From Chromera velia (taxonomy: Eukaryota): a stretch of DNA of 64,000 nt. The notes beneath the pieces were generated by a model. The model saw nothing but the letters and a program-made list of their open reading frames with translations. It made no database searches and was not told where the DNA came from. This document shows, piece after piece, positions 25,423 through 64,000 of the stretch. Position 1 is the stretch's first letter. Each line of letters starts with the position of its first letter. Where the stretch lies: positions 124,001 to 188,000 of the forward strand of contig JAHBMJ010000001.1 of the NCBI GenBank assembly GCA_018398765.1, read 5' to 3'. Position numbers and translations under genes: made by a program.

Positions 25423-28400
25423 ATGAACCGTGACACGGCTGGTCGAGGCACTAACCTACTAGGTATTAGGTGTGTTACGCAACAGTGTAGTTACTTTGGC
25501 AAAAGTTCTGCACACACGGGATTATAATATATATACAGTTAGATCGATATATAGGCAGACATGCATATGGCGGCTCTCCCCTTAGTGCAGGGATTCTCCT
25601 CCTCTCCAGCAGCAGCAGCCGGAGGATCCCAGGCTGTAGCATCGCGGAGGTCAGGCAGGGGGGGTAAAGCGAAGCCTGGAGCCGCACCTCCGCAGGCCAT
25701 CGGAGGTAAACGAGATCGTGGACATCTGATGCCCCCTGACGATATCCAGACTGACGGTCTGACAAATCCCCCCTCGCCCTCAGCACAGAAAGACTCCCCT
25801 AAGCGCCCGAAGTCCGCTGTATTGCCCCCTCCCCCACCCCCTTTTCTGCCTAGTTACTCAAAATCGCTCTCACAGACCCTGACCAACAGTCTCAGAACCT
25901 CTCTTCCCGACCGCCACGTCGCTGCTTCCGCTATGGCGATGGTCCCACCCCCCTTGATCCCAATAGTCGAAAAAGCCCCCGGTCAGCCTCCTGGTAGGTC
26001 TAGAGAGACGGCTGCAGCGGGCTGTGGTAGTCCCTCCACACTTGGGAAACGGAATTAGGAGAGTGCTACAGCGGCAGCACTGTCTGCTTCAGCAGGAGGG
26101 AGGCCCTACCTGACCTTTCCGCATTTGACCGCTTCGACGCAGGGTGAATCGGTCTTTTCGACGCCCCCTCGCAGACAGTCCTCAGGACAGACCCTCCCTG
26201 AGTTCGGTCACGACACGCAGCCCCGCCTAGGGCCCAACACTAACGATGATACAGAACCTACAGCCCTCTCTCTGGCAGGGCTGCCCCCACTAGGGGCCCG
26301 CACCGAGGCCCCCACAAAGCAGCAGACGCGTGAAGGCCCTCCCGAAGGCATGCTAATGGATGCGTTTGTAGGGGACCGGGGTTTTTTCACAGGCTCAGCT
26401 GTCCCCCAGACAGCGGAGCCCTCCGTCTCCCTGTCTCCACCCCTCCACCAGCCCCCCCAACCGTCTAAGGTGACAGCTACCCCAGACCCGTTGCCCCCTC
26501 CAGGGCCTAGTCTGCTTTTTTTGCCCCCCGTTTCCTCACGCCCCCCACAGGACTCGGGTGGGGAGGACTTGGGGGCGATGTTGGGTCTCGGCAGGCACAA
26601 CTGTGAGTTCCCCCCCTGTGACTTATTTTTCGGATGCTCCCAGACACCTTAGTCGAAGCAGGAGTCTGACTCCCCGACTGTCCATATGGTTGCCTACTGA
26701 AGCCTCAACTGGGCCCCAGTCTGGTGGCACTGCACAGGTTTGCCCAGAGGGGACTGCTTTGAGTGGTCAGACTCCTGATGCCTTTAGGGGGGAATGTAAT
26801 AGTGAACTGACCGCTGGTGGTAGTGGGTGCCCCTCCGTGACTGGGGCCAGCGAGGACCCGACCCCTGACTTTCTCTTACCCCCGCTGAGATCTGATGGTA
26901 GCCTAGTAACGATGTTGATTGCAGGCCTGGCAATGGGCACAGCCATTGGAGGGTATCGAACGGAGTGGGAAAGCCCTCCTGGGCCACCCTAGATGACGAC
27001 AGCCACCCTCCGTCTGACGGCCAGTGAGGCTCGTGAACCCCTAGTAGACCCCCAGGGAGGTTTTCTGGGAGACTCGGCAGGCGGACCATCGGGGTGTGGA
27101 CTCTCTGTGTCTTGTTCTGAATTGTCTGATGGCTTCTCTGTATTCGATAGTCAGATGCTGACCATACTGTGTGTGAATGTCTGTGGACTGTCCGACCGCT
27201 TGCAGTGTCCCCGCTTCCGGGATCTCTTGGACTGCACGGACATCCTTGTATGTACAGAGACGCGCATGCTGTCAGAAGAACTCCACTTGGACACGCATTG
27301 GTGCCTGAATTTCCCGCACTACCATGAAACAGCAGATAATCCCATTAGGTTTACGGGAGGGGTAGCCTTTTTTGTGAATAAACAATTGTGCCCAGAGGTC
27401 CCAAGAAGCAATGCAATTGGCCCTTCTTGCGCCTCAATCAGGTTTCCAGCACCTGCTGAGCTTGCCTAGATCCCCGCAAATCCCCTTTGTGATAAAGCCC
27501 CTGTAACCGAGGCCCGGATGTTTACAATTGTAGGTGCTTACTTTCCCACCTCCTCTGCACAGCGTTACGCGGGTGTCTCCTCAAACGCCCTCTGGGATGG
27601 GATCTAAGGGGTCCTAATGTCCTCGCAAGCTGACTTCAGAGTCTTGTGTGGGGACTTCAATGCACACACGGCCAACCTTTGTACCAAAGTCCCCCTCCCG
27701 TCGTTATTAAACAACGCCCCGATGCCTCATGCCTCTGACCACATAGCTCTAGCTGGTAGAGAGCAGCGTTTGGGTCCTTCTCTCTATATCCAGATCCAAA
27801 GGGACAGTAGAGATCGCAGGAGGCCAGACCCACAGGGGAAAACCCTTATTGACAGGGCGTCAGAGTGTGAACTGACCATATTGAATGGGGCAAGACTCAT
27901 CCCTGCTGTTCAGCCCCCCCTCCCATTATGCCTGCCCCCCAACCCTCCTGCTATTGATGGTGCTCCGATCTTAGGACAGAGCTGTGAGCACCCATCTATG
28001 ACTCAGAGATCACCTGAAGAGAGCCGTGAGGACCCTCTCCTGGGGTCGGCCCTGTGGGACCCTTATCCGTCATCTGCCGAGCATACATATTTCCGAGAAG
28101 CTAGGGTTTCGGTTGTAGACTACATGTTCGTCAGTACAAACCTTCTTCCACTCCTTCGCTCCTTCTCCATCAGAAGGGACAGGGAGATAGCGCCGGATCA
28201 CACTCTCCTCTGTGCAGGGTTTGGGCAAGCTCAGGTTGCACGGCACAATGAATACCCAGTTGCAGAACCTAGGCGTCCAGGCCCCCCTCAGGGGTCGGAC
28301 GAGTATGGTCTAACCCGCGCTGTCCACAGCATGAGCAACGAGTCCCACTTGCCTCCTGGGCCCCCGCCTACCCTGCCTGAGGGGTGGGAATTCGCCTCCT

Positions 28401-31400
28401 GCCTTCGTGGCAGCTGGCCAAGGCCCGGTGCCCACTGCTCTATCCCGACTTTCGACTCACCAGGATTTGCCGATGCGTCGAACAAGTTGTGCTCCTACCT
28501 AAATACCCGTAAATCTCCCTGGATGGGCTTAGATGTAGGTGCAGTGCAGCCCTCTCCCCTACCCACTGGCATGGAGCAGGGGGATACGATTGATTCCATT
28601 TTCTCCGGATAGTTTTAGGCAGTGTGTGGTGAGGCAGGTGGCCGTCCCCCCTCGGTTGCTTCCTGCTCTCCTCTTTTGAACTCTGAGAGCCCGTCACCAC
28701 CTCCCAGATGTGTTGCTTCACCTAACGATGGACAAAGGAGGGTATCTGCGGGGGCGACCTGGAGGGCAGGAAGAAGGTCCAATGTGCCCCGAAACAGGCC
28801 CCCGATTCTCCAACCACTCCGATTAGAGGTGCGGTGGTGGGCAACTGAAGTGAAGAAACAAAAGTCGTTGTTGTTCGCTCCCGGACGACTTCCTGTAGGG
28901 TCCAGCCGACTGTTACACCTTGTCATCGCAGAGACCCACAAAAAGTACAGGGAGGCTAAAACAGCGTACAACCGAGCCTTATCAGCTTATGTGAAGTCGG
29001 AAGCAGTGGAGCGGGAAAGAGTGCTGCAAGCGGAACTGCAGAAAAGTTCATATAGAATCTATGAACTACTTAGAGACCTCCGCAAACGCGCAGCAGCAAG
29101 GTTGATGCCCTCTTGTGCCGACGATGGTACGTCAGCTGCCCCCACAACACGAGTCCCCTCCCCCTGGGCTTTTGCTGAGCACTTTACTCAAGTATTCCGC
29201 TGTCCTGAGGAATCCAGTCCCGGGGGATGCTGTTCAAGGCCCCTTCCGAGTTCTTCCTCTCTCACAGTCCCTGGCATATTGGTCTCAACTGTCTCACAGA
29301 ATGCCTATGCCCCTCCTGTACGAGGCTTGGCGCCCTTGAGCACGGAGATACCCCCACCACTTCAGGGGTCCTCTGCCCCCCTAATGCCACCGCCAAGTTT
29401 TCCTCCCCTCTCCCCCCTCTCAAACCCCCCCCCCCNNNNNNNNNNNNNNNNNNNNNNNNNNNNNNNNNNNNNNNNNNNNNNNNNNNNNNNNNNNNNNNNN
29501 NNNNNNNNNNNNNNNNNNNNNNNNNNNNNNNNNNNNNNNNNNNNNNNNNNNNNNNNNNNNNNNNNNNNNNNNNNNNNNNNNNNNNNNNNNNNNNNNNNNN
29601 NNNNNNNNNNNNNNNNNNNNNNNNNNNNNNNNNNNNNNNNNNNNNNNNNNNNNNNNNNNNNNNNNNNNNNNNNNNNNNNNNNNNNNNNNNNNNNNNNNNN
29701 NNNNNNNNNNNNNNNNNNNNNNNNNNNNNNNNNNNNNNNNNNNNNNNNNNNNNNNNNNNNNNNNCCCCAACCTGAGGCTTCTGACCCTAGAGCCCCGTCT
29801 GGTGTATGGGAAGCTACTGGTAGGGTATCGCCGTTCCTGGATCTCGAATTCTTCTCTCAGGAGGAAGTAAAGTCCTGTCTAAGGGCTGGTAAGAAAAAGA
29901 AAGCGGCTGGCATTGATGGGCTGGTGGTTGAAAACCTGAGGAAATGGTCCCAAAACCCGCTCTTCGTAGCCTTAGTCACAGACGTGTTTAACGTCTGCCT
30001 TGTAGAGGGCAGAATTCCGTCAATCTGGAATAGATGTCTTATCTTGCCGGTGCTGAAGCCCGGAAAGGACCCGGAGGACCTGGCCTCCTACAGACCGATC
30101 CACCTGCTTAGACACCTCTCGAAGATGTTCAGCTCACTCGTTGATCAGCGATTGAGGAAGATTGTTTCGCTTTCCCGGGTGCAGTTTGGATTTTAAAAGG
30201 GTAAAGGTACCAGGGACGCTCTGTTCGTTTTCAACCACATCCTCAAGAAGTATCACTTCCCGGGTATGCATTATATTTTTATCGACTTGAAGCAAGCATT
30301 TGACTCGGTAAGACATAAGTGTTTATGGGAGCGCTTAAAGGAGGAGTGGGTCCCCCCTCATTGGGTACGGGTTGTTCAAGGTATGTACACTGACGTGTGG
30401 GCAACGGTCTGTCAACCTGCCAGTGAGGGTATGCAGAATCGGTGTGTAGCGGGCTTAGCTCCCACTGCTGGCAAATTTTGGTTTAGAGAGAGCGTTGGGG
30501 TCAAGCAGGGCAATCCACTCTCGCCACTGTTATTTAATCTCTTTATAAATGACCTCCCGTCTTTTATCGCTGACCGACGTCTTACGGCCCTGTCAAATAG
30601 GACTGGGCCATCCGATCAGAATCCCCAACCCCCCCCTTCGTCTTCCGCTCTCCCTCCAGCCTTGCTGGCAGCTGTTTCGTCTGCCTCCTCTTCGTCTTCC
30701 AGTCACCCGACTTCCGCTAAGGTTAGGGTTGGGCCTTCTTCTGACTTCTGTGAGCTTGAGTGCCTCCTTTACGCTGATGATCTCGTTTTGTTCCACCCAG
30801 ATCCAGGTGAGCTGACTTGCATGCTTGATCGTTTGTCTGCCTACTGTTAGAAGAACGGATTATCTATGAATGTCTCAAAGTTATACTCGTTGTTTGTGGG
30901 GGAGGAATGGAGTTTGGGCGAAAGGAAGGTCTTTCTCTTTGGGGGGAAAGTCATACAACGTTGTTCAGAGTTTAAATATCTGGGTGCAATTTTCGACAGG
31001 AATGGGGCAGTCAGTCGCGCTTTTGAAATGCGTCTAAAAAAAGGGAAGAGAAAGGTGTTTGCATTACTTAGGGAACTTGCACTGCTTGCCAAGGTCTCCC
31101 CGGGGAGGTTGATAACAATGTGCAGGACTGCAGCCTCGTCAGTATTCCTCTATTCGGCGGAGACAGCGGGCTTGTCCCCTCGATAACTGCATCTTATTGA
31201 CGACTTCTGGTTAAGCCTCTGCCGGTCCCAGGTTGGCCTCCCCCAAACCTCTCCAAGGATTCTTACCCTCCTTGAGTTTGGTATCCTACCCGGAGCCGCA
31301 ACCCTAGCAGAAAGAGCGCTCAGGTTCCTGTGGGGAGTGGCGCAGAGGCCAGTGAATGACCTAACCAACCTCGTGTACAGAGAACTGTGTGAGAGGCGAC

Positions 31401-33408
31401 AACTGGCCATTTTAGACGACTTTGTTTCTTTCGTTTCGTCCTGTTGTCTTGTAGCAAAGCTAGACCCTGCTGATGTACTTCCACAAAGCTCTTTGTCTTC
31501 GAGTACGGTGATGTCATGGGGGGGGGAGCTCTTTTCATCGCCAATGGGTGGTGTGCAGAGAAGAGTCTGGGAGACGGCAACTCAACAGACAAATTGGTCT
31601 TCTCCGGGCATCCCCCCCCCTTTTTTCGTCTTACCTCTGTCTCCGTCCCCTCCTTATGGTTGCACACACCTTTCTGATGCCTTGTCAAGCAGGCTTGCAC
31701 GTCTGCTGTGGCGTCACGAGCCGTGGCCGTACTTTGAAAAACCGTTCCCCCGTTCCTACCTCCTGGAACGCTCGCTTCCCTTCCAGTCTCGTCGAGTTAT
31801 CTCTCTTTTCCGACTGGGGATCTGCCAGACCTCGGCCAGGACGGCTTTGTTTAGAGGTATGGCGGCTTTTTCCCCCCTCGCTCGCTGTTCATTTTGCAAA
31901 GAACGAAACCCAACGACCCCACCGCAAGATCTACCCATCGGTGATGAGCTTCACGCTCTTTCTGACTGCCCGGAATTTGACTCTGCTAGAGATCGATTCC
32001 AGCAGGTCTTGCGGGTCTTGCCGAAAGCGAAGTACTTCAGCCTCAGCACACTCGACTGCAGCGAGATATTCTTTGTCAAAGTCCTTGTCCCACTACTTTC
32101 TGAACGCCTTGGATTGGTGGGGTGAACGTTGGTAGGGATCAACGAGTCTTTAGTTCGCAAACAAAGAGACATAACGAGACAGGACACCCCTTTGGATGGA
32201 GAAGATGTGGGCCGACAAGGTTTGCCGAATCGGTCTGCTGGCACAGGGGGGGTAAGGGGCACAATATCTGCTAGACAGTCACATCAAGCCATCGTCATTC
32301 AGGGTCAGAGTCTTCCAATCCTCTCTTCAACGTCTGCAGCCCCCATCTAAGCCAGTCTGCTGCGTAGAGTCGCCGCTAAATCAACTCTTTCTGTAGGCTG
32401 GTGTTCCACCATGTTGCCTGCTATCCAGTCGTTAGATGCCCACCGTTCAGGCACTTACTCGCTTCCTCTCCTTCTGTCACTCTCATAAGTGTCAGTTATC
32501 TACACGGATGGCGCCAGCCGCTCTAATGGTACGCCGCACGCGAAGGCAGGTTATGGAACATATTGGGGTCCTGGACATTCATGTAACCTCAGTTGTAGAC
32601 TCAGAGGTAAGCAGACAAACAATCGAGCCGAGCTGAGTGCGATCATAGCTGCGCTTGAAACTGGAATTCTCCATGGTCCTCCTCGCACGCTGATAGTCAA
32701 ATCTGATTTGTGGTATGCTTGCCGAGCCCTGGAGTCATGGGTTCCGCAATGGGAAAGAAATGGTTAGAGAAGACCTGATGGAAAGCCAGTGTGCAATCAA
32801 GATTTGATTAGTAAGTTGGTCAGCCTTGTCAATGAATACGAATGGGTACTGGAGGGGACTGTGTCTATCCAATGGGTGAAGGCGCACAATAAAGAGCCTG
32901 GTAACGAGGTAGCAGATGCTCTCGCTGTCAAGGGTGCGTATCTTCCCATCCCTTGTGCGTAATGTTCTTGTCTGTAAAGGAGTAGGGGGTTGGGTGTATT
33001 GGTCTGATATACTGGGCCAGAGTGAGAAAGCGTAACTTGAGGTGGAGAGGGAGATTTGGTTCTGGCCTTGGAAGTCGAAGACTATCTGGTGCTGCACCCT
33101 ACTCTTAGAGCTAGAGGAGGTTGTGCTGACTGAATTTATCTATTCTTCTTCTCGGTCGTTGATGCAGCGTGCTTGGTAGGAGTCGGTTTTCCACGTTGGC
33201 CTGTTTTTCCTCATTAACTGGTACTGCATGCTGGAGGTTTTTTGTCCAGGACCACTCTAGGGAGCGGGCCGATAGACCGTATGTATGACCAGACACGTAG
33301 CGTGCGGCAGGTAATGCCGAGCAGTTACGTGATGTATGTGTATGGGGTGGAGGTACTACCTGAACGGGCGGATGCTCCCATACCTCCCCTTAATACCTAA
33401 TACCTAAT
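25423..33408 (+). mobile_element. Full-length degenerate APE-type non-LTR retrotransposon (RTEX-like architecture): Pro-rich N-terminus, AP endonuclease, RT, CCHC, RNase H; (TAATACC)n tail
   Basis: APE at about 27150-28250 (ILCVNVCGL, CTET, GGVAFFV, GAYFP, CGDFNAH, SVVDYMFVS, PDH). RT at about 29870-31000 (KAAGIDG, YRPIHLL, QFGF, FIDLKQAFDSV, GVKQGNPLSPLLFNLFINDL, LYADDL, FKYLG). Knuckle CSFC...GDELHALSDC at about 31885-31970. RNase H at 32489-32940. All lie in one frame from 26558 to 32962. Tail TAATACCTAATACCTAAT at 33391-33408. Candidate TSD ACGTTTAA (25415-25422) / ATGTTTAA (33409-33416). Confidence 0.9.
32489..32962 (+). pseudogene. RNase H1-like domain at the C-terminus of the retrotransposon ORF
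   Basis: VIYTDGAS..NG..AKAGYGTYWG...QTNNRAELSAII.ALE...IVKSD..Y......W...W..NG*...GKPVCNQDL...QWVKAH...PGNEVADALA. The D-E-D-H-D catalytic residues are present, with one TAG at the conserved Trp of NGW. Confidence 0.9.
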
Positions 33409-33671
33409 ATGTTTAATTCTATATGCGTACGTATATGTACATATATGGCTTTGTTTTTTTTTTCTGTAAAAAAAAAAATAATGCGTGCATGCATGCATAT
33501 ATTTAATTTTGGTGTTTTTTTTTTCGGCGTCAGCTAGTGCACAAGGAGGAGGAGGAGGAGGAGGAGAAAGAAGAGATTGTAGTGACCATATAGGTTTGAT
33601 TTGATAGTATGGTAGTATGCCAGTACCGTTTGGTTTTCCAAGGAGGAGTCTAATACAGAGACCCTCAACCA

Positions 33672-33989
33672 GAGTTGAAGTATAGGGTACCAGCCTGCCG
33701 CGTATCTATACTTGCTTCTGGACCCGGCGGGCCGAGCGTGCAGGCCGTGCCGCACGGTGCCGAAGCGCCGTGCTGGCCAGGATATATATTAGGATTGCCG
33801 CGCGTGCATTCGATTTTGTACGATTTGTGCCGTGCGCATTCAGCACAAGCCAGTTCAGATTGATCCACTTCGTGCAGTGTTAGCTGATTAAACGTTTTTC
33901 GGCTGTTCGTTCTACTCTGCCTTGATGGACAGACTATTTCATGAAGTAGTTCCACCGTCATGGAGATCTAGCTCTGTATTCCGTTTGAC
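33672..33989. repeat. Dispersed approximately 315-bp GC-rich repeat, copy 1 (likely element end)
   Basis: Aligns end to end with 35700-36011 (GAGTTRAAGTATAGGGTACCAGCCTGCCGCGTATC...ATTCCGTTTGAC), roughly 90% identical by eye. Confidence 0.9.
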
Positions 33990-35247
33990 CATCTCTTTGA
34001 TCATTCTCTTTTATGGTTGACAGCGCTCTATTGTGTCCCGTTTCGGTCAGTCAACGACCGCAATGATTTCCGTCTCCTCATCTCTCCAGCTATCTTTTGC
34101 TCCACCTTTCCACTGCTTGGAAGCCATCCGTTCCAGTTAGAGGTAGAATGAGAGAAAGTTTTCAGGAAGCTTTCTCCTTCCAATCTGGAAGCTGTGGAGG
34201 AAGGATAAACCTGCAGCCACTGCTGCGCCTGTAGGTCTCTGCTGGGAGACGTCATGTTGCTAGTCATGTTGCACGATGATGTTCGTTTATTAAAGACTCC
34301 AACGTGGACGCCAGATGAAAAACTAAGTCTCCACTGTTCCCCCAAGCTCTTTCGGCTTCTCTCCTCAACAACATCACCCAGATCGAGCACGTGGACAAGG
34401 ACCGCCAGTAGCATGATTGCTGCTATTTCTGCCGAGAGCCGCCCTCACCTCAGCTGCCACTAGCTGCTGTCTGGACCGCACTGAGCCATCAGTGCACCAT
34501 CTGCTCGTAGCTGTTTTCTGGACCGCCAAGAGCTGAGAGTGCTGCAGCTTTTCTACTATGACTTCGCTTATCTGCTCGCCAAGGATCATAAAGGAAGGCA
34601 AGGTTTCGGAAGCACCTCTTTGGGGGGGGGGATTCTTGATGACTTTTTTATCCGTGCTTGGCTGTCTCCGTGTCTTCTGCCAGTCAACATCCATCCGTGT
34701 GTACACTGGAGTGAGAGAGGATACAAGGACGCTCCGCTGAGTTGCGAATGCAAGGTTTGCAGTGTTTGTTTTCTCTTGTTAGGCAGTGAGTGCAAACTGT
34801 GCATGTGATTGAACTCTTTGATGGAGAAGCATACAAGGCACGATTTGTTCTATCTTTCTGCACAGCCACTGCATGGATTCTTTCTTTCCCTGTTGCTTTT
34901 CCAGTGTTGTGAAGCGCTCATCTTTTGAAAGGCAACAGACAGCCAGACCTAAGAGGCAGGCCAAAGAAAGGCAGACTTAAGAGGCACTGCCAGGCCGGAG
35001 ATAAACAGTCTTATGATGCTTAGCCCTCTGACCTTGTTCTTGTGATGCCTAGCCCTCTGTCTCTCTATTATCCTTTCATGTGTGCTTTTCAATCTTCAAC
35101 ACTGGCAGGCAAGTGAAAGCAAGAAAAGATTTCATTGACTCTCAGGCAGTCAGACCAAAATGCTGTTTCATTCCCTTTGTCTTTATCTTTCTCTAGTGTT
35201 TCGCTTCCGTTTCTTTCACTTTGCAAAGCTTGCTAGGATATGACCTA

Positions 35248-35678
35248 GGGTATGACACTTAAAAAATAAATAAATATAATTTAATTACAAACCCTAAGGG
35301 CATGTATCCCTCTGATTAGCTATAACTCTAAAAAGTAGTTTTTTAAGGTTTTTAGGATACACTGACCTTATTTCTACGATAACACAACCTTTTAAATTAA
35401 ATCTTATAACCTTTTATATATAGGATCAATCAATCAATAGGAAAGTCAATTCGCCCTCGGAGGTTTGCAAATGCTCATGACGTCGCTTTGCAAACCTAAT
35501 CCCCCAACCTGACCAAACATGTCTAAACTTATCTAAACCTGGTTCCAAATGGCTTTTGCTATAAGTTTTGCATAAATACAGAGAAGATGTAAAGCAAACA
35601 CAGCCTGGTATTTTACCATAAAACATCAGACAAACCGATTATTCAACGAATGTAGGATAAACTTAAGAACATAAAAGA
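35248..35678. mobile_element. Truncated copy (one end) of the AT-rich element at 38668-39756
   Basis: Starts GGGTATGACAC. Reverse complement of about 39355-39753 over roughly 400 bp. Confidence 0.75.
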
Positions 35679-35699
35679 TAGAAATGTAATTGAGGGGGG

Positions 35700-36011
35700 G
35701 AGTTAAAGTATAGGGTACCAGCCTGCCGCGTATCCATGCTTGCTTCTGGACCCGGCGGGCCGAGTGTACAGGCCGTGCCGCGCAGTGCTGAAGCGCCGTG
35801 CTGGCCGGGATATTAGGATTGCCGCGCGCATTCGATTTTGTACGATTTGTGCCGTGCGTATTCAGCACGAGCCAGTTCAGATCGATCCACTTCATGCAGT
35901 ATTAGCTGATCAAATGCCTTTCGGCTGTTCGTTCTACTCTGCCTTGACAGACAGACTATTTCATGAAGTAGTTCCACCATCATGAAAATTTAGCTCTGCA
36001 TTCCGTTTGAC
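35700..36011. repeat. Dispersed approximately 315-bp GC-rich repeat, copy 2
   Basis: Direct repeat of 33672-33989, followed by different downstream sequence. Confidence 0.9.
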
Positions 36012-36954
36012 TCTAGCGTTTGACTGTCTCTTTGGTTATTCTTTTTTACTAGTGAGACACACATCAAGTGAGTCAAGGCCTTCGTTTGCTCTTTGTAAAC
36101 TTCTAGCTTTCTTTGATTCTTTATTCTGTCTGCCTTCTTTCTGCTTTCGTTGTTTGTTCTTCCTCTTTCTTCTGATGGGGTGCTGCTAATCGAAGGCAAC
36201 TGGCAGTGGGATGACCGCCCTGCAGGCCCTGCAGGGCCTGGTTATTACTGGTTGTTCCTTCAGTGGGGAGGGGCACGAGGACCACCATGGTCATCTGCCA
36301 GTACCGCTTGGCTGGCTGTGCAGATTTCCACCACCAGTCTGTCTTCTGCGTGGCCTCGGGCCCAGGGGGGCAGAGAGGCTGGGAGGCGGAATACCGCAGG
36401 GGCATCGGAGCGACCATCAAGCAGACATCTATCAATGTAATGGCGGCAGTCCCCAACATAGATGGGGACCGCTGCTATCATGTGGTGGTGTTCGAGATCG
36501 GTGCACCTGCTACTTAGCGGGCCTGACAACGTGGGAATACCGGTGGAGAATCGGGGCCGCCGTCTAGCTGACCACCTGCGATAACTTGCAAGGCAGTGGC
36601 GGCTACCGAAAACATCGATGGGACACGGATCTACCGTGTCGTCGTGTTCGATGGAGATCGGCTGGCCGATTTCCATTAGTGCGCCGTCTACTTGGCGAGC
36701 CTGAGGACATAGGATGGCCAGCAGTACCGTCGTCTCTACCACAACTGCTGGGACTTTACCAGGGCTAGCCAGGGCTCTATGCACCCTGATGGGTGCAAAC
36801 TACTACAACACCTGGGAGCATGAGCTCCCAACTGCCATCGCGGGTCAACCCTGTGTAAAGTAAGTGGTTCTTTCTTTTCAGACTCGCGCTGACTTTGCAT
36901 CATACAAAAATCTTTTCTTCGTTCTCTACGATGCAAAGTTTAACTTTGGACCAG

Positions 36955-38667: not shown

Positions 38668-39756
38668 GGGTTTGACACTTTGTGAGGGTACCCTAGGTTT
38701 GAAGTTAGGTTTTTCAATAAAAACTTAAATTTTTGATGTTTTAAAAGAAATTTCTGGAGCTTAATTTTCTAGAAAAGCTTAAAAAATGCTAAAATAGGGT
38801 CAAGTGGCTAAGGTTAGGGTAAGTTAGGGTAGGTTTTGATGAATTTAAAACCCATTCGCTACGTCTAGTTTAGAATTGATTTAAAAACCATGGTCACACC
38901 AGATTTAAACCTTCCAAACCTCTTCAAACCTATCCAGACCTGGTCAAACTTCTGAAATCTATATGTGAATGATCTGTTAAAAGCATATTTTATATGTTTT
39001 CGCCAGTAAGACCACGTTTGTGACACTCTGTGTATAAGCATTTCAGAAAGGGGATATAGCCTCGCTTGCATCAGCATTCACAGTAACCGCTGCATTCTCT
39101 TTGTCCTGCCTCCCTCCCTTTTCCCCTCTCTTCTTTCCTGGTACGATATGGTACGATCTTTGTTTACTTGATCGCCTCTCCGTGGAAACCACACATATGA
39201 ATAAGGAATTTGGAAACCTACTGCACTAAACATTGATGGCGGCTTACAAATTGAAGATAGAGAATTGGAGCAAGTTGATCGGGCATTTGAAAAGGAAATT
39301 ACACCTCTGGAGAAGTGACTCAGAAGTTTGTTGAAGTGTGAAAGAATGAAAGCAGCTTTTGTGTTCTTGACTTTATCCTACATTTGTTGAATGATCGGTT
39401 TGTTTGATGTTTCCTGGTAAAATACCAGGTTGTGTTTGCTTTATATCTTCTCTATATTCATACAAAAGCCATTTGGAACCAGGTTTAGACAGGTTTAGAC
39501 AGGTTTGGTCAAGTTGGGGGATTAGGTTTGCAAACCGACGTCATGAGCGTTTGTGAACCTCAGAGGGCAAATTGACTTTCCTATATATAAAAGGTCATAA
39601 GATTTAATTTGAAAAGTTGTGTTATCGTAGGAATAAGGTCAGTTCATCCTAAAAACCTTAAAAAACCACTTTTTAGAGTTATAGCTAATCAGAGTGACAC
39701 ATACCCCTAGGGTTTGTAATTAAATTATATTTATTTCTTTTTTAGATGTCATACGT
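38668..39756. mobile_element. AT-rich non-autonomous DNA element with long imperfect inverted ends
   Basis: Left end GGGTTTGACACTT. The right end, reverse-complemented, resembles GGGTATGACAC as seen in the 35248 copy. Internal AAACC-rich tract (38895-38950) mirrors GGTTT tract (39475-39530). Flanks are CTA / TAG. Confidence 0.5.
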
Positions 39757-39905
39757 TAGATTAGTAGTTAGTATACAGTCTAGACGTTATTTTAAGTGAC
39801 TATGACTATGACGCGCCATCGTTATCTATATCCAGAGCTAGCTGAATACCTCTAACGTTAGGCAGGAAAAAGTTGTTATTTTCTAGGACGCCATGCTATA
39901 CTGCC

Positions 39906-41203: not shown

Positions 41204-44200
41204 TTATCCTCCCCGCCGATCAGTTGATCCTCCCAAACCGCGACGACTGGTCCCCGGGGGGCGCTTTGCCGCCTGATGCTCTCCCTCGGCCTGTGGCTCC
41301 ATCTCGAACTCCCCTCCCCCGATCTCTCTCTCACTTCCACCTTCTCCCTCTATCTCGGTTTCAAATGGGGCACCGATCATGCGGTTAATTGAGACCGCAC
41401 TCGAGAGGGCACTGGGGGCGGGACTCCGGTTGCCCCCGCGGTCGCTGCTTCCCCCCTCGCTCCGGGGGGCGGCAGGCACAGGCAGACGGACCTGGACGCT
41501 GCTCCCACTCCCTGCAGCGACCCACCCACTGGCGTTCAAGTTCGAGTTCGAGTAACTGTTCTGTGCGGACAGCCCCCCAGCTCTCGAGCCAGTGTGCTCA
41601 GCCCGAGACGGCATGATGACTCCACGAGACGAGGTCCAAACGATCTCATCTGTCGCCCTCACAGCCACCACAATCTCAGGTTCCTCCTCCCCCATGCTGT
41701 TGTTGCTGCTGTCGGTCTGAGGGCTCCCCCCGTTGAGACGCCGGGACCCTTGGCGACTCGCTGCACGCTTCGGCTGCTTCCGTCCACTCTTTGTGGGACT
41801 CTGCTGAGGGCTCTGCTGGATGTACGCATAGAAGGGGCCCTGCACCGGCGCCCCCCGGAACTCCGAAGGGTCGGGGCCCTGCCACACGTAGGAGGCCCCA
41901 GTCGAAATCGCGGCAGCTCTTCGCGTTTGGGGACTTCCGGCGATTCCTCCCATTTCGTCATCATAGGACGCTCTCCTATTCGAACGTTGACCCGAAGAGG
42001 AAGAGGAAGAGGAGGTTCCTACCCACCCACCACTTCCCCCTCCTCCTGCTGCTGCTCCCGCCGCTTCACCACCAACCGCTTGAGCGAGACGGTTGGATGC
42101 CTCACTCCCTCCTCCACCCTTGCTGGAGTTTGCAGAGGGGATAAACATGACAGCGAGACGCCCCTCAGGTGTGAGGCAGAGCTCAAACTTCCCCTGCTGA
42201 CGCCTTCGAGACGATCGGCCAGTCATGGCAGCCAGAGAGCGAACTGTGAAGTCCCCAACCGCTGCGGCCATGTCTCTCAGACGAGACCTCACTGTCTCCC
42301 CCCCGCTTCTCTGCCCTCTGCTCGATCCTCTACTGCTGTTACTTCCTCCTCCTCCTCTCTTGTTTCGTCTGCTTCCAGAAGCACCCCCCCCGTCTCTCTC
42401 TCTCTCTCCGTCTGCACCACCACCAAAAAGCGCAAACCGCAGAGACCTGCCGGTCTTCCCCCCCCCATGATTGCGTGTCGTCATCGGTTGCCTCTCATCA
42501 GTCACCTCAGGGTCGTCTGCATCGTCCCGCACACCCGCACCCGCCCCCGAGACCGCCCCCCCGCTGGCAGAATTTGTTTCCCCCCCCGCGTCTTTTAATG
42601 CTACTTTGATCTGGGGAATGTCAAGCTCCTCGGACACCGCGGTCATCTCCGAGTCGCTGCCTCCGCGCCGCACAGGGGACGGGAGACCAGCAGCCACAGG
42701 GGTTGCAGGTTCTGCCTCCATCCTCATCTCCTCCTCCGTCGCCGCCACTGTAGGCGTGCACCACACAAGCCTTTCCCCCCCATCTGCCCAAAGCTGTGCC
42801 TGGCCCGTGGAGGCATCAAGCGAGAGGTACGCATTCGAGTCTCGTGCGTGCATCCACTCGCCCCCTCCCTCCAGGAAGCACCGTGTGTCGAGAGGGAGAC
42901 GGGAGCCCAGATGGGTACGCGAGTCGAGAAACACAATTTGGGAGGACGTCAGGGGTGATTTCTCTTCGGCAGCCGCAGCTCCCGCAGCAACCACCGTCTT
43001 ATTCCGACAGCAACAGCACCAGACGAGGAACAGGACAGCTAGAAGGATGCACAGAGGAACTGCGACAACCACCGGGATGAACCAGGGACAGTTCACCACA
43101 GACGCGGCACATGCATCCCCCCCCTCCCCTGAGGTCTGTTCTTCTTCGGTCGGGCTCTCTGGAGGAAGTTCTTGGACAGGACGCTGCTGCAGTGGGTCCT
43201 CAGCTGAGGGTGTTGCCGCGTCTCCTCCTTCATCTTCAGGAGAAGGGGGGACTGTCTCACTGCCGTCGGAGATCTCCACGGCTGTGGACGCGGAGAGAGA
43301 GAAGTCCGTCAGGTGGGAGCACGCGCACGTGACTGTGGGCCGCTCACTGCTGCTGCTACTGCTTGCCCACCCGGAAGGCCACGTGACACCCCTGACTGTG
43401 CAGCCCTCCGAGGCCCACGCACTCGCAGTCTCGTCAAGGAATCGACAAAAGACCGGCTGCTCCACGCGTCTGACGGCAGAAACCCTCCATCGGAGAGTTA
43501 CCCCCCCGTCTCCTCGGAGCTCCCACTCAGGCGGTGCCCCCTGTCTGAAGGCGGTTGCAATCACCTGATCTTGGACCGGCATTGATACCTCTATGGGGGG
43601 TCCGTGCACGTTGTTCAGACTCACCGAGTCACCGCACCGTCGGAAATTCACCGACACAACCGGACCCACGATCCCCCCCTCTCCATCTGCGCTCCCGAAG
43701 GTCTCCTCTGTCCAGGGGTTCAAAGGATTCTCCGACACTTCCAGGGTGATGGTAGGAGCGTTGATCCTTCCCCCGCAACGGGCAGCAGGCATCGAGGTGT
43801 CCTCGTCCAGCGCCATCGACTCAGAGGCACTCCAGAAGGTGTGCAGGGTCTCACCATGCCAGAGAACGGACACACCAGAGGAAGTGTCGACTGCAATCTG
43901 CGTGTCATTTGTCATCGACGATGGGGGAAAGGCGACTGTGCTGATTCGCATAACGGGATTCCCATCTGTGCTGCCAATCTGTTGTTCCCGCACCCCCGCC
44001 GTGGCACCCACCATGCCTTCAATCGATCCAGCCTCGCCTCCACCCCCTTGCAAGAGACGGATGCGCACCGAGCCGCCGACCCCGCCTCCCGAGGTCGGAG
44101 CCGTGGATGACAAGACAGTGAGGCGCTTCATGGCCACATTGAAAAGCTCTTCAATCACCTGAGCCCGGGGGGCACCTGGGATCTCCAAATCGTCCCGAAT

Positions 44201-47200
44201 TCTCAACACAGGACCCGCCCCCCGCCCCTCTGCCAAAGAGGAGCTTTCATCATCGCTCTCCCCCATTGTGTGTCTTGTGGTTACTGCATCTACAGCCTCA
44301 GCAAGAAGCTTCATGGCCCCACTCATAGCAGTCTGCAGTGCTGAGCGGACTTCGTTAGGCAGGCTCTCGTCCTCCGCGTTCGCCCTTGCATTCAGCAGAT
44401 GCTTCCCCCTCTGGAACGCCCTCTCTCCTGCCACCAGAGTCCGGAAGGTGAGATCGAGGTCGATGATGTCAAGACGACGCCCTAGGGACAACTGCAATCA
44501 ATCAACCAACCAATCCATCAGTTGATCAATTCATGAACCAACCAACCAACCAACCAATCAATCAATCAGTTTATTCGGATCAAACACCCGAGGAGGACCT
44601 GATCGGTCGAAAGAGAAAAAAAACTGGACAGAGGGAGAGAGAGACGGAGGCTGACCATTGAATTTGCTCCCTCAAGGAGCATGTCCAGAGTGTTCACTGT
44701 TCTGTCAAGGACTCCCGTCGGAAGATCAGTCACCGCACTCGCCAGACCGAAGATATTCCCTGCCACTTCCTGGTTGACGATGTCAATGGCAGACAATGCA
44801 ACGTTCTTCGCAGACTGCCGGGCCGACTGCTGCGTGGAGTTTTGGGCTTCAGGCATGTCAAGAATCCCGGCAGTCCGGGCAGTCTCCAGCGTCCATGCCC
44901 TCAGAAGGTTCACCTCGTTCATCGACTGCGTTCATAAACGAATCATTTTAATGATTGAATGAATCAATCGGACAATCAATGATCGGTCACTTGATTGTTG
45001 CCTTTCTCTCACGCTCATTTTCTCTCTGCGGTTCTAGCTGTCTTGAGAAAACCGAAAAACGGATAATGACACAGAGTAGATGTACGATACACGGGGACCT
45101 GCCTCAATGTATGGGGGATACCCTGGGGGTCTATCTTGCACTCCCCTACCTCATCAGCGGTGGATCGGGACCCTGACGTTGACGTTTGCAGTCGGCGGCG
45201 TCGTGTTCCTCCCTCTCCTTGTCCGACCCCCACGGAGACGCTGTCCTCTCCCCCAAACCACCCCTTTCGCCTCTCAGCCAGAACGTGGACGTCCGAGAGC
45301 TGCAGGCGGGTCCGCAGAGAGACCTCTCCCACCCGGGTGCCATACGCCTCCACGCTGACAGAGCACGCGGGGTCAGTCGATACAGAGCAGTCGAGAGACG
45401 CGTCGGGGGCCTGGGGGATCGTCAGGCCGACGGGGGCGCTGTCGACGGGATGCGACCGCCGCCCCCACCGGTCGATCGCTTGGAGGCTGAACACGTACCA
45501 GCCGTCGTGACCTTGGAGCGGCTGAATGTATGGTGGCAGGCAGGCAGGCAGGCAAGAGAACACAAGTGCAAGTAGACAATGAGAAAGAAATCGAAGGAAT
45601 TGATCGAGAAGCCGATCATGCAGAGGAACCGAGAAAGAGGGGAACAAAGGGGATTCGGCATGCAACACTGAATGAAACAGATGACTGCATGCAACGTCAG
45701 CAGATATCTCTCTGCCTACAATTAAGGGAGAATTGAATTGAAGGATCGACGATTGAATGAGTATTCCCCGAGACAAATTGAGGCTGACCAGGATGGGCAG
45801 AATCCTCAAAGACTGCCCCTGCAGAACCCTACCCAGATAGACTACAGGGGGCGCGTCCACCCCCAGCACCGGATTGCCTTGAGAGTCTGCCACTTCCTTG
45901 ACCCAAAGAGCGAAGGACAAAGGCAGGAACTCAGCAGGGGCCACCCAGTCGACATTCACGATGGCCACAAGGGAGGGCACCCCAGGAGGGACATTCCTCC
46001 AGTCCCCGTTCTGGATCGAGAACGGGGCTCCGTTTGAAGAGGGGGGCACAAGGAGCTCGACGTCATCTGCATGCAGAAAGACAGAAAGAATGAAAGGAAG
46101 CAAAATGGAAAAGGAGCGCACACAGCAAAGCAACACGGCCGACTCGGAGACATCCAAACGCGCACAGAAAAGGACTGCCGAAGCGCTGTAAATTGAGCAG
46201 TTTGGCATCGCAGTAGAAAGATGCTCTAATCTGTCTGTACAAGAGGCGAAAAACCGAAGCTGCTGCCTTTCTGCCTTGATTGATTGATTGCCCCCTGCAG
46301 GATGACTGCTGACCGAAGCACCGGACCCCAGGTCCAAATTTCCCCTCAGGGCACTGGCAGGTGAACGATCCGAAGGCCTCTGTGCAGGTGGCCTCGGCAT
46401 CACAGTTGTGGAGGCCCTCTGTGCATTCGTCGACGTCTGCACGTGAAATGGATGGACTGAATCAAGGCGGTAGAATTGCATGAATTCAGACCAACAGCAG
46501 TAAAAATCAGGAAAGACGAAGAAAGCGGGTCATTTAAATGCAGGGAGAAGAAAAGAAACAAACAAGTCAATGCAAAATGGTTAAACTAGTGCAGACTGAC
46601 TTTCACACTGCGCCCCGTCTCCTCTGAATCCATCCCTGCATCTGCACGTCTGCTCAGAGAGGTACCCGATGACTGTCGCGTGGGGGGAACACCAGTCGTA
46701 CTGAACGATCGGCGGCTCCCCTGCATACACATATATTCATATATACGCATATGCACAAACGATTTCGATTTACTTATCCCGGCCCGCTTTTTAGATTTTC
46801 GTCGTCGTCTCAAAGGACAAACCGTATTGAATGCCTGTGAAATTTTGGATTCGCCAAAACACATCAGAAAGCGAGAGCAACAACAAAAACAATACGGCCT
46901 CAAGCAGACAGCACGTACGCACCGACCTGTGGTGCACGTGCGACCGTCCCCGAAGTACCCCTGTTTGCACTTGCAGAAGAACTTGAAGAAGGAGCCCTGA
47001 GAGTCGTCCCAGTCCACGCACTCTGCATTGCTCGGACAGTCGTGGACGCCCTCAGCACACTCGTCGATGTCTGCAGACATGCATATGAACATGGGCAGAC
47101 AGGCAGGCAGGCAGACATATCGATCGGAAGAAGTCACGAACAGTTCCGGCGGGCAAACATCACTGATACAGACAACATCTGTCCACCTTGCAGAGACCAA

Positions 47201-50200
47201 AATATCCAAAAATGCGAACAAAGCTCCATTTCGAACAAGCGTTCGAGCCTTCCAACTGAGTCGCGAACGAAGCTGAATGTCCAACCAGAAAGAGACAAAA
47301 GCTACTTCATTCCGACTCCCTCCCTCCCTCCCTCCCTCCCTCCCTCCCTTCCTCACTCACTCACTCACTCGAGCAGGGCACTCCAGGGTCAGGGCATCTA
47401 AATCCGTCCTCCAATCTCCCTATCAGATCGCAGCCGTCTCCGGACTCTTCGTTCCCGTCGTCGCACTCCTCGGGGCCTGTCAGGAGACCGTCTCCGATGT
47501 TCACTGCACGCGAATACTCAGTCAGGTGTGTGCGTGCATGCGTGTCAGTGCGACCTTGTGATTCACTGTCCATGTCGATAAAGGAGAGAGCAGAGGAAAC
47601 GATGCACAAGTGTGGAGAAAGATCCGCAAATTTTATATCCGCTTGACAACTGCCTCTAGACTTCCGCACAAATAGACCCGCCCAAAGAAAAAAGAACACT
47701 CGTAAGTCGACATACCTTCGCAGACCTGCCCGTCCCCCTCATACCCAAGGTTGCACGTGCAGGTGTAGCTGCCGATCGTGTCCAGACAGGTCGCCAGAGT
47801 GTTGCACAACGGACTCTGTGCAGACGAACACTCGTTGATGTCTGCATGCAGTCGCGGAGAGAAAATGGACATTTGTTTCCCGCAGACTGTAGACACGTTT
47901 TGTGATGATCTGTACATCATCGGGGCATTCAGCACGTCAACGTTCTTCTACGCCGTTCAAAAGAACCCATTCTGGGGCGAAAGGGCCTCTGAGAGAAAGA
48001 CCCACACAACCACGTGCCCCTCCTTTCCCGAAAGGCGCAATCGCACACTCACTCACTCACTCTCGCACAGGGCGCCTTCCACCAGACAGGCAAATCCAGG
48101 TTCAGGAATCCCGATGGCAGAGCACCCGTCGAAGCTGTCACCGTTCCCGTCGTCGCACAACTCCACACCGGGGGCGATGATGCCGTCTCCCACGAGGGCT
48201 GCATGGACGCATTTGTTTTCATACAGAATTCTTTATTTATTCATACAGAATAAATGCATTCATACAGTATGAATGCACACACAAGGGGCGATGATGCCGT
48301 CTCCTACAAGGGCTGCATGCTCAGACACGCCATGCAGTCCGGCAGGGAGGTAATCATGAGGCAGGAAGGAAACTCGGCGATCGACGGACAAGGAAAGAAG
48401 AAGAACAAGTCAAAAGGCAAAAGCAAGAAAGAAATATGGAACATCTAAAGCTATCCCTCCTCCATTCAGCCTCTCTCTGTGAAGCGACCCCCCTGCACAG
48501 GAACCCTCCTCTGCATTTCTACCGCGCCACCTTGGTTCGTTCATTTTTGTCTTTCTTGCCTGTCTGTCTGCCTGGCTCACCCACTCACTTCCTACATGTC
48601 AAGTTTCCCCCTGCCTTCCTCTCTGCCTGCCTGACTGACTTGAGCATGTGGTTCCCGGAGGGGCGGCTGGGTCCTCCCAGTGCCACCCGAGGCGGCAGTC
48701 ACAGGAGAAGCTGCCCTGGGTGTTGGTGCACGAGGCAAAGTCTGAGCAGTCGTCGGTGCCCCTGGCGCACTCGTCGATCTCTGCATGCAATGAGAAGAGA
48801 AGATGTGCATGTCCGTCCAAAGATTTCCTTCCACACAGACTCACACAAACACACAAAATCCATGGAAGAAGAGAATTGACAGCGGGACGAATCACCGTGG
48901 AAGGACAAGAAATTGATATTGACAAACAGCTTCATGCAATTACGGCTCAGGCTCTATTGATAGAAAAGGCATCGCCTGCCCCCCCACACAAATAAATAGC
49001 CACGCACCAGAGCAGGAGACGCCATCCCCCTCGAATCCCAAATTGCACGCGCAGGTGAATCTTCCCTCCAGGGCCCCCTTATTTTCGCAGCTCGCTTGGG
49101 AATTGCAGTTGTGGACCCCCAGCAGGCACTCGTTCTTGTCTGCATGCATGCACAGATTCGTTCAAGTTGGGTGCGTGCAGAGGGGGGTTCATGTTTGGAG
49201 AGAGAGAATTAAGCAAGAGGAGGAAGATGCAATGAGATGATTGAAGGTCAAACTCCCAAATCAGTGGAGCACTAATTTGAATTGTTCCCGCGAACTGCCG
49301 CCAGACGCATTTTGTTTGAGAAGAATTTTCTTCTGCAAGATTTGATTGATTTGCAGACCTGCCGGATACACTCAAATGAAATCACGGCAAGACAGAGGTG
49401 AAATGCCGACACAACTGCATGCCGACAGACCTTGACACACAGAGGGGGCGTTGTCGAAGTTCTGGCACTCCCAGCCTTCCTCCACACGGCCCTCGAAACA
49501 ACCGTCGTTTGCGTCCGTGTCCCCGTCGTCGCACTCCTCCCATCCGACTCGGGTGCCGTCTCCAAACGTCGCTGTGTGGATGCATTGACGTGCAGGAGAA
49601 TCATCAACTACGATGTTTCTTTTTGACTCTCTACTCAAATATCAATGGGGTGACAAGCGCTTCAGAGTGTTCATGCTGTGAAACCTCATAGAGACTCCTT
49701 TTGAATCTTTCACTCAGACGAACGAGCTAGCGTGCTGAACACGCGTGTGTCAAAGAGATCCTTTCTAAAGTCCAAAAAAATGCCGATCAGATGGACAGAA
49801 TCCGATGCACCCTGACAGTCACACTGAGGAAAAAGAAGACTGACGAATGCAGTCGCTGCAGAGCGTCGGACATTCCCACCCGTCCTCGATGAGGGAAGTG
49901 GAGGAGCACCCGTCTCCACTCCTAGAGTTGCCATCGGCACACTCTTCGCCCCCAACAAGCACGCAGTCCCACACGTTGGCTGCATGCATGCAGGTTTGTG
50001 TGCGGGCAGGGGGAGACAAGATGAAACAAATCAATCACTGATGAAGAGATAAAGACCGATGAAGAAGTAAGAGTCAGCGATTAAGCATAGGAACGAAACT
50101 AGCGAGGAATGTGATAATGGAAGCAAGCAACTTGGACTGCAGCACAAAACAAGTTCCATACACAATCCATCCGTTTACAAGAGGCATTTCTGACGTGCCA

Positions 50201-63835: not shown

Positions 63836-63852
63836 CTGCACTCAGACCACAC

Positions 63853-63952
63853 AAGACAGAAGCGGAAAGATCATTCAAACCAGACAGAAGCGGAAAGATC
63901 ATTCAAACCAGACAGAAGCGGAAAGATCATTCAAACCAGACAGAAGCGGAAA
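63853..63952. repeat. Intronic 28-bp minisatellite, about 3.5 copies
   Basis: CAGACAGAAGCGGAAAGATCATTCAAAC units at 63881 and 63909, a partial unit at 63937 and a near-copy at 63853. Confidence 0.9.
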
Positions 63953-64000
63953 TGGAATGCTGCTTGGAGGCAAGAGTAAAACCAAAAAGTCAGTTGGGAA

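What the first reader, a model, noticed from the sequence alone, without database searches (positions are those of the whole stretch)
26558..32962. RIP-like nonsense signature: a 6.4-kb retrotransposon frame with 12 stops and no frameshift
Seen: every ORF fragment from 26558 to 32962 is in the same frame, broken only by stops at 26990, 27467, 27605, 28610, 28616, 30194, 30848, 31184, 32123, 32348, 32486 and 32765. Where the consensus is known, the stop replaces a codon one transition away (RNase H NGW to NG*; QFGF[Q/R]KG to QFGF*KG). Established: in filamentous fungi, repeat-induced point mutation gives C>T changes at CpA/TpG, producing TAA/TAG without indels. Inference: a young element was hit by directed C>T hypermutation, suggesting a RIP-like or methylation-deamination genome defence in a non-fungal, probably alveolate, lineage. 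I know of no description of this in that group but cannot check the literature.
Basis: partly seen in the sequence, partly recalled or inferred. Interest (0 to 1): 0.85.

Follow-up and report, generated by a model that had tools for sequence, protein, structure and literature searches.

The report
C-to-T hypermutated transposons in chromerid alga
A young retrotransposon in an alga related to malaria parasites, like its sister copies, has been broken almost entirely by C-to-T changes on both DNA strands, likely the scar of a repeat-targeted cytosine-marking defence rather than of classical fungal RIP.

Summary
The 12 in-frame stops are real. The element is a multi-copy non-LTR retrotransposon (endonuclease, RT, RNase H); its closest named proteins (84-94% identical) are from Chromera velia. 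Other copies show that 11 of 12 stops replace Gln (8), Trp (2) or Arg (1), each by one C>T or G>A; one is unresolved. Across copies, C:G>T:A changes occur about 30 times more often per opportunity than transversions and about 5 times more than the reverse transition, equally on both strands. A sister LINE family and two non-coding repeat pairs show the same excess; a small host-gene control does not. It is not a Neurospora-type signature: CpA equals CpG (about 2.8 times CpC/CpT), all contexts are raised, there are no same-strand runs, and RIP indices are not reached. 'No frameshift' crosses a 329-N gap that other copies show to be empty. Best reading: dispersed, likely methylation-linked C>T mutation of repeats, most like Dim2-dependent mutation in Zymoseptoria. 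A published table lists only DNMT2-type enzymes for Chromera (weak evidence), so the enzyme is open. A genome-wide mutation bias is not excluded.

The parts
26714..32962 (+). Pol-type reading frame of a non-LTR retrotransposon, 12 internal stops, terminal TAA at 32960
   Evidence: homologous models align from 26714
27150..28200 (+). AP-endonuclease-like domain (bounds approximate)
   Evidence: Pfam Exo_endo_phos only weak on this copy (E 0.017-0.05, below cut-off), E 4.9e-7 on sister-family protein P0095; UniRef names
30060..30900 (+). Reverse transcriptase domain (bounds approximate), YADD motif intact
   Evidence: RVT_1 E 7e-29 with X at stops
32495..32940 (+). RNase H domain
   Evidence: RNase_H E 9.2e-28
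29436..29764 (.). 329-N assembly gap inside a poly-C run; no sequence is missing by comparison with other copies
25564..26650 (+). Possible 5' ORF1-like frame of the element (other frame, one internal stop at 26056); inferred only
   Evidence: no Pfam match
32963..33480 (+). Probable 3' UTR ending in short repeats and an A run; end not fixed
   Evidence: multi-copy depth continues to 33100; sequence
33672..33989 (+). Non-coding repeat, copy 1 of a direct pair with 35700-36011 (90%): 26 transitions, 2 transversions
35700..36011 (+). Copy 2 of that direct pair
35245..35680 (+). Non-coding repeat, arm 1 of an inverted pair with 39350-39760 (85%): 31 transitions, 10 transversions
39350..39760 (-). 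Arm 2 of that inverted pair
41204..64000 (-). Host gene (EGF-like and Cys-rich repeat exons, GPS motif), used as control

Best explanation
This is a recently inserted non-LTR retrotransposon copy whose cytosines have mutated to thymine on both strands far faster than anything else has changed, likely because repeats in this alga carry a dense cytosine mark (probably 5mC, mostly at CpG and CpA) that is deaminated or mis-repaired one site at a time. Shown: multi-copy element; stops arise from single C>T/G>A changes; directional, strand-symmetric, CpA=CpG > CpT=CpC spectrum; same excess in a sister family and two non-coding repeat pairs; no same-strand runs. Inferred: that it is targeted to repeats (small indirect controls), that it happens after insertion on double-stranded DNA (strand symmetry, non-retro-looking repeats also hit), that a methyl mark and a methyltransferase-type enzyme are the cause (untested), and that it works as a defence (about 9 stops expected from this copy's own rate, 12 seen, so the ORF dies long before indels would break it).
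For: Base level, 29770-33100, differences at >=5% share: transitions/transversions 319/32 (X1), 291/26 (X2), 203/16 (X5), 184/11 (X7); changes towards C/G (window copy mutated) stay at 104-122 while changes towards T/A rise from 80-95 in the two sparse runs to 169-199 in the two many-copy runs. Amino-acid level, 1297 columns, 10 gene models plus 1 transcript ORF: C:G>T:A 148 events (6 are stops) per 1197 opportunities, T:A>C:G 22/991, transversions 21/5327; window copy alone 50, 4, 3. Context CpA 47/247, CpG 41/194, CpC 29/426, CpT 25/330, chi-square P=1.7e-8; same on both strands, no CHG effect; 31 of the 40 displayed read rows that are window-private C>T: CpA 14, CpG 10, CpC 4, CpT 3. 8 of 8 models whose C-terminus aligns (of 11) end at a Gln or Trp site. 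Sister family, 286 columns: 27 of 34 changes C>T-compatible, 5 reverse, 2 transversion-only. Repeat pairs: 57 transitions, 12 transversions. Controls: 4-fold sites of 10 independent duplicated host exon pairs 11 transitions, 13 transversions, CpA 1 of 10 assigned (P=0.001 vs repeat pairs); 32 host introns GC 0.47, TpA o/e 0.42 against a simulated equilibrium of GC 0.13-0.18, TpA o/e 1.1 under the element's rates. Precedent: Dim2 5mC in Zymoseptoria TEs prefers CG, then CA, CC and drives mitotic C>T (PMC8016269, passages).
Against: No methylation data and no enzyme were seen. PMC12344493 Supplementary Table 1 lists for Chromera velia no DNMT1/3/4/5/6 or orphan enzyme, only 4 DNMT2, and its text says DNMT2-only species have undetectable 5mC; but the same table gives all zeros for Phaeodactylum, which PMC9998398 says has DNMT3, 5a and 6, so its zeros are weak. 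In Zymoseptoria >98% of the mitotic C>T were at CA, not CG, unlike here. The host control is small (24 changes), coding, and itself CpG-biased (8 of 10), so CpG mutability is not confined to repeats. Reverse transitions are also 5-6 times above transversions, partly mis-polarisation, partly perhaps a generally high transition rate. The family is still abundant and contigs of two runs guessed to be RNA, and one transcript ORF (P0096), come from mutated copies, so silencing is incomplete. Contexts at protein level use the window's codons and neighbours, cover only non-synonymous changes and favour stop-poor stretches. A base-level test on a second family and on single-copy DNA could not be obtained.
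Confidence: 0.5

Rival explanations
1. Genome-wide extreme GC-to-AT mutation bias. All DNA mutates this way; a young, unselected copy simply displays it, while genes and introns keep their GC through selection, biased gene conversion or transcription-coupled repair.
For: All four CpN contexts are raised 17-54 times over transversions with only a 2.8-fold CpR preference; reverse transitions are also raised; no DNA methyltransferase is on record; no true single-copy neutral control was available (no genome). Rhizoctonia shows CpG-biased C>T in genes and repeats alike (PMC4014442, passages).
Against: Host duplicated exons have transitions = transversions at 4-fold sites and almost no CpA change; introns are 47% GC and TpA-poor (o/e 0.42) while repeat-rich intergenic DNA is 37-42% GC with TpA o/e 0.83-0.97.
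Confidence: 0.25
2. A true RIP-like process: duplication itself is detected by homologous pairing and an enzyme (methyltransferase-like or deaminase) converts C to T in the paired copies.
For: Several unrelated repeat types are hit, including two linked non-coding pairs of 320-430 bp, while 130-150 bp duplicated exons are not, in line with RIP's length threshold of about 400 bp (PMC3318451 introduction); target context varies among fungi; CpA is raised only in repeats; load varies among copies, 3/307 to 11/176 codons.
Against: No same-strand runs: 75 of 139 adjacent pairs vs 69.6 in shuffles, P=0.18 (clustering as a RIP trait is recalled, not from a call). 0 of 9 element windows reach RIP index thresholds (thresholds recalled). 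DNMT4/RID described as confined to fungi and absent in Chromera's row, though diatom DNMT4s exist. Tens of similar copies persist (rough, from depth).
Confidence: 0.17
3. Editing or error during retrotransposition (APOBEC-type deamination of cDNA, or an error-prone RT).
For: The element is a retroelement and the changes are transitions.
Against: cDNA editing gives one strand's change (own knowledge); here C>T and G>A are equal in number and context. Non-coding repeat pairs with no sign of retro origin share the spectrum. No strong 5' base preference.
Confidence: 0.05
4. Alternative genetic code (TAA/TAG read as Gln) or a sequencing/assembly artefact.
For: 8 of 11 resolved stops sit at Gln positions.
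Against: Other copies have C at 30194 and Gln/Trp/Arg at the stop sites, two TAG replacing Trp; the host's 1096-codon last exon has 40 CAA/CAG, no internal stop, and ends in TAA. A diverged copy contig (31981-32277, 297 nt, 36 differences) is listed with the same extent and count in two DNA runs of different studies.
Confidence: 0.02

Closest known systems
Dim2-dependent mitotic C>T mutation of repeats in Zymoseptoria tritici (PMC8016269, passages read)
   Same: Repeat-associated, C>T-dominated, includes non-CpG (CpA) sites, no need for a sexual stage; the 5mC preference there (CG, then CA) resembles the mutation context here.
   Different: There >98% of new C>T were at CA and CG was spared; here CpA = CpG and CpC/CpT are also raised. 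Dim2 is known there; no such enzyme is on record for Chromera.
Repeat-induced point mutation, RID/DNMT4-dependent, Neurospora and other ascomycetes (PMC3318451 introduction read)
   Same: C>T in duplicated DNA, nonsense codons at Gln/Trp, few indels.
   Different: No dominant CpA target, no same-strand runs, low load (about 4% of C in this copy), indices not reached, no RID on record; homology trigger and timing untested.
Passive deamination of 5mC in methylated transposons (plants, animals, basidiomycetes; PMC3318451 and PMC4014442 passages)
   Same: Both strands, dispersed, CpG raised.
   Different: CpA is as mutable as CpG and a CpG-only tenfold model is rejected by the stop types; no plant-type CHG effect.
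Non-LTR retrotransposons with AP endonuclease, RT and RNase H
   Same: Domain order and motifs.
   Different: No close relative outside Chromera (next hits 22-34% in RT); clade not assigned.

Membership tests
Fungal RIP | Excess of directional C>T in repeated DNA | tested here: met
Fungal RIP | One preferred target context (CpA in Neurospora) | tested here: not met
   CpA 47/247 = CpG 41/194; CpC, CpT also raised
Fungal RIP | Clustered same-strand changes (feature recalled) | tested here: not met
   75 of 139 vs 69.6 expected, P=0.18; low power if many rounds overlap
Fungal RIP | RIP composition indices (thresholds recalled) | tested here: not met
   0 of 9 N-free 500-nt windows
Fungal RIP | Single-copy DNA spared | tested here: inconclusive
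   indirect only: host exon duplicates and intron composition
Fungal RIP | Triggered by homology above a length and identity threshold | not testable with these tools
   needs an engineered duplication
Fungal RIP | RID/DNMT4 enzyme, premeiotic timing | not testable with these tools
   no genome held; published table lists none but is unreliable for absence
5mC-linked repeat mutation (Dim2-type or passive deamination) | Strand-symmetric, dispersed C>T | tested here: met
5mC-linked repeat mutation (Dim2-type or passive deamination) | Rate highest in CpG and/or CpA | tested here: met
   CpR vs CpY odds ratio 2.8, P=1e-8; 24 of 31 read rows
5mC-linked repeat mutation (Dim2-type or passive deamination) | 5mC present on repeats and a DNA C5-methyltransferase in the genome | not testable with these tools
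   no methylome found in the searches; table lists only DNMT2 x4
APOBEC-type cDNA editing | One-strand G>A bias | tested here: not met
Non-LTR retrotransposon (APE-RT-RNase H) | RT and RNase H domains in one frame | tested here: met
Non-LTR retrotransposon (APE-RT-RNase H) | N-terminal AP endonuclease | tested here: inconclusive
   below Pfam cut-off on this copy, above it on P0095 (35% identical)
Non-LTR retrotransposon (APE-RT-RNase H) | No long terminal repeats | tested here: met
   window self-BLAST shows no flanking direct repeat of 60 nt or more
Non-LTR retrotransposon (APE-RT-RNase H) | Target-site duplication, defined 3' tail, clade by phylogeny | not tested
   ends not fixed

The most novel reading that the evidence does not exclude
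Chromera, the photosynthetic sister of apicomplexans, runs a mutagenic anti-repeat defence with no DNMT1/3/5/RID: an unrecognised enzyme (for instance one of its four 'DNMT2' paralogues turned to DNA, or a deaminase) marks or directly converts cytosines in repeats, giving an independently evolved RIP analogue with a CpR preference in alveolates.
Probability: 0.25. Interest if true: 0.88.

Novelty: new variant of a known kind. Interest (0 to 1): 0.62.

Why it matters
Repeat-targeted C>T hypermutation with strong non-CpG involvement is documented mainly in fungi. Finding it in a chromerid, which holds about 30 Mb of transposons against 1.5 Mb in Vitrella (PMC4501334, passage) and is listed without DNA-type methyltransferases, would either reveal an overlooked methylation system next to the apicomplexans or a new mutator. 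It is cheap to test: the genome is public and two strains are in culture (bioRxiv 10.64898/2026.10.21.760691, start of abstract). It also warns that many Chromera gene models are fragments of nonsense-riddled transposons.

Tried and rejected
No whole genome is held, so no RIPCAL-style census and no search for methyltransferases or deaminases. No RNA holder on record was listed; runs X5 and X7 are only guessed to be RNA, so nothing is concluded on expression level. Only 40 of about 540 difference rows were displayed. A base-level spectrum for the second retroelement and flanking single-copy DNA was not obtained. Rejected: stop read-through; library damage or assembly error; cDNA editing; CpG-only deamination (would give mostly TGA stops); plant-type CHG methylation (CHG 28/239 vs CHH 73/764); TpCpG targeting as in Microbotryum (TCG 12/60, not above ACG 13/44). 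Literature: 'repeat-induced point mutation'+'Chromera' 0 papers; Chromera+5mC+TE+DNMT 0; Chromera+DNA methylation+methyltransferase+cytosine 7 papers, 5 listed, none on this by title and abstract start; Chromera+methylcytosine 2, unrelated; some searches gave only context papers; hypermutation+Bigelowiella+RIP 0, so that lead stays unchecked. The library lacks most subscription papers. Supplements: 12 of 23 files of PMC9998398 searched, no Chromera; 12 of 16 of PMC4501334 searched, no methyltransferase or Argonaute identifiers; unseen files, and closed bioRxiv supplements of 10.1101/2021.11.30.470311 (passages only), may bear on the enzyme question. Earlier scan notes on this genome: none.
Full report
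Observation. The frame starting at 26558 has exactly the 12 internal stops listed (6 TAG, 5 TAA, 1 TGA) and ends at TAA 32960; the other frames have 54-111 stops. The frame crosses 329 N at 29436-29764. Three protein models of other copies align continuously from 29434 to 29765, so the gap is empty, the element frame is about 6.07 kb, and the frame match across the gap reflects the gap size; the 11 C's on the left contig would keep the frame if the run is complete. Homologues support the frame only from 26714.

Identity. With X at the stops, Pfam finds RT (E 7e-29) and RNase H (E 9e-28); the endonuclease is below cut-off on this copy but above it on a 35%-identical sister protein. No flanking long repeat exists: a non-LTR retrotransposon. 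The closest proteins, 84-94% identical, are UniRef entries for Chromera velia; outside that species RT identity falls to 22-34%. One listed protein is the window's own translation and was left out. Summed contig depth is roughly 5-55 times that of single diverged contigs (the tool warns this is no copy number), so tens of copies is a rough figure.

What made the stops. Other copies have Gln at 26990, 27467, 27605, 28616, 30194, 31184, 32348, 32486, Trp at 28610, Arg at 32123 and G at 32766, i.e. Trp; 30848 is unresolved. All 11 are one C>T or G>A away. Only 155 of 692 possible stop-making changes are of that type, P about 7e-8 under equal rates. The copy's own non-synonymous C>T rates predict 8.9 stops, 12 seen (P=0.19): neutral decay. 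Eight of 11 models align to their C-terminus and all 8 end at a Gln or Trp site, so sister copies die the same way. Read-through is excluded by these residues and by the host's 1096-codon exon with 40 CAA/CAG and a terminal TAA.

Spectrum. Contigs of four runs laid on 29770-33100 differ by 319/32, 291/26, 203/16 and 184/11 transitions/transversions. Differences towards C/G, where the window copy is the mutated one, stay at 104-122; those towards T/A grow with the number of copies, which gives the direction. At protein level (1297 columns with at least two other copies, 14 without majority dropped) C:G>T:A has 148 events per 1197 opportunities, T:A>C:G 22/991 and transversions 21/5327, with 8 ambiguous and 3 multi-step events set aside; the window copy alone has 50, 4 and 3. 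Requiring three other copies gives the same picture (94/683, 15/554, 13/2987). Context: CpA 47/247, CpG 41/194, CpC 29/426, CpT 25/330 (P=1.7e-8; CpA vs CpG P=0.72), alike on both strands, with no CHG or TpCpG preference. The 31 window-private C>T rows among the 40 displayed agree: 14, 10, 4, 3. No same-strand runs: 75 of 139 adjacent pairs vs 69.6. RIP index thresholds (recalled) are met by 0 of 9 element windows. Limits: protein-level inference borrows the window's codons, sees only non-synonymous changes and favours stop-poor stretches; majority polarisation can mislabel shared changes.

Generality and controls. A sister LINE family (about 40-50% identical in RT; 3 models, 286 columns) has 27 of 34 changes C>T-compatible, 5 reverse, 2 transversion-only, matching the measured rates (P=0.46) and rejecting a 4-fold symmetric transition bias (P=9e-8). 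Two non-coding repeat pairs in the window differ by 57 transitions and 12 transversions, CpA 23 and CpG 13 of 49 assignable. A second retroelement at about 19250-22720 has 12 stops in one frame before a frame change near 22330; its copies were not compared. Control: 10 independent pairs of duplicated host exons (from 33 of 40 parsed exons) have 11 transitions and 13 transversions at 124 four-fold sites, 8 of 10 assignable transitions at CpG and 1 at CpA (P=0.001 vs the repeat pairs). 32 host introns are 47% GC with TpA o/e 0.42, whereas the element's rates run to equilibrium give 13-18% GC and TpA o/e 1.1, and repeat-rich intergenic DNA is 37-42% GC with TpA o/e 0.83-0.97. These controls favour repeat targeting but are small, partly coding and indirect; the CpG bias in host exons shows some context effect outside repeats. 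No single-copy polymorphism data were available.

Mechanism. Strand symmetry and involvement of non-coding repeats point to mutation of double-stranded DNA after insertion (inferred). Dispersed changes with CpG = CpA > CpT = CpC fit a dense cytosine mark on repeats that is deaminated or poorly repaired (0.5) better than processive RIP (0.17); a genome-wide bias masked in genes remains (0.25); cDNA editing (0.05) and code or artefact (0.02) are unlikely. The enzyme is the open point: PMC12344493 Supplementary Table 1 (part 2 read; passages) lists only four DNMT2 for Chromera and none for Vitrella, and says DNMT2-only species lack detectable 5mC; but the table also shows none for Phaeodactylum, which has DNMT3/5a/6 according to PMC9998398 (passages).

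Known systems. Closest is Dim2-dependent mitotic C>T in Zymoseptoria repeats (PMC8016269, passages), which differs in being almost all CpA. It works partly like RIP (PMC3318451, introduction and passages) but fails the target-context, clustering and index tests, so it is not filed as RIP. Rhizoctonia (PMC4014442, passages) is the precedent for the genome-wide rival. The Chromera genome paper (PMC4501334, passages) reports about 30 Mb of TEs and has no occurrence of 'methylation' or 'methyltransferase' in its main text. Searches found no description in chromerids; the library is partial. An unchecked note from this scan mentions a different, TpA-type hypermutation in Bigelowiella, so non-fungal targeted hypermutation may have precedent; I could not find that paper.

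Verdict. A real, strong and apparently undescribed C>T hypermutation of repeats in a chromerid; a new variant of a known kind, with mechanism and strict repeat-specificity still to be shown. Interest 0.62.

Noticed in passing
window:19250-22720 (+): A second, unrelated-looking retroelement (RT-like and restriction-endonuclease-like motifs recognised from memory; two ORF pieces had no Pfam hit) with 12 stops in one frame (7 TAG, 3 TAA... for the list) and a frame change near 22330; CpG o/e 0.53.
   Followed up: partly
window:41204-64000 (-): Very large host gene with at least 40 short exons of alternating EGF-like and CDDGN-type Cys-rich repeats, duplicated in blocks (up to 97% identical), then a GPS motif and a long last exon; adhesion-receptor-like. 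Used as control.
   Followed up: partly
window:2229-8300 (+): Intron-rich host gene with a weak SET-domain match in one exon (E 0.0018, below cut-off); probably a SMYD-type lysine methyltransferase (motif recalled).
   Followed up: partly
window:35245-35680 and 39350-39760: Inverted repeat pair about 430 bp long, 3.7 kb apart, enclosing a copy of another repeat, gene-like fragments (36190-36860, no Pfam hit for one piece) and a long TTTC microsatellite; possibly a non-autonomous DNA transposon.
   Followed up: partly
window:4179-4294, 7006-7223, 12155-12451, 14520-14908, 29436-29764: Assembly gaps sit at poly-C/poly-G or microsatellite runs; the one tested holds no missing sequence, so the others may be overestimated too.
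   Followed up: partly
window:30194 and 32348: Two other copies' gene models end at the same positions as stops in this copy: recurrent hits or shared descent from an already mutated copy.
   Followed up: no
window:32220: Contigs of both RNA-guessed runs carry 6 extra bases here relative to the window copy; in-frame length differences among copies also at 27713, 27779, 28322, 28529.
   Followed up: no
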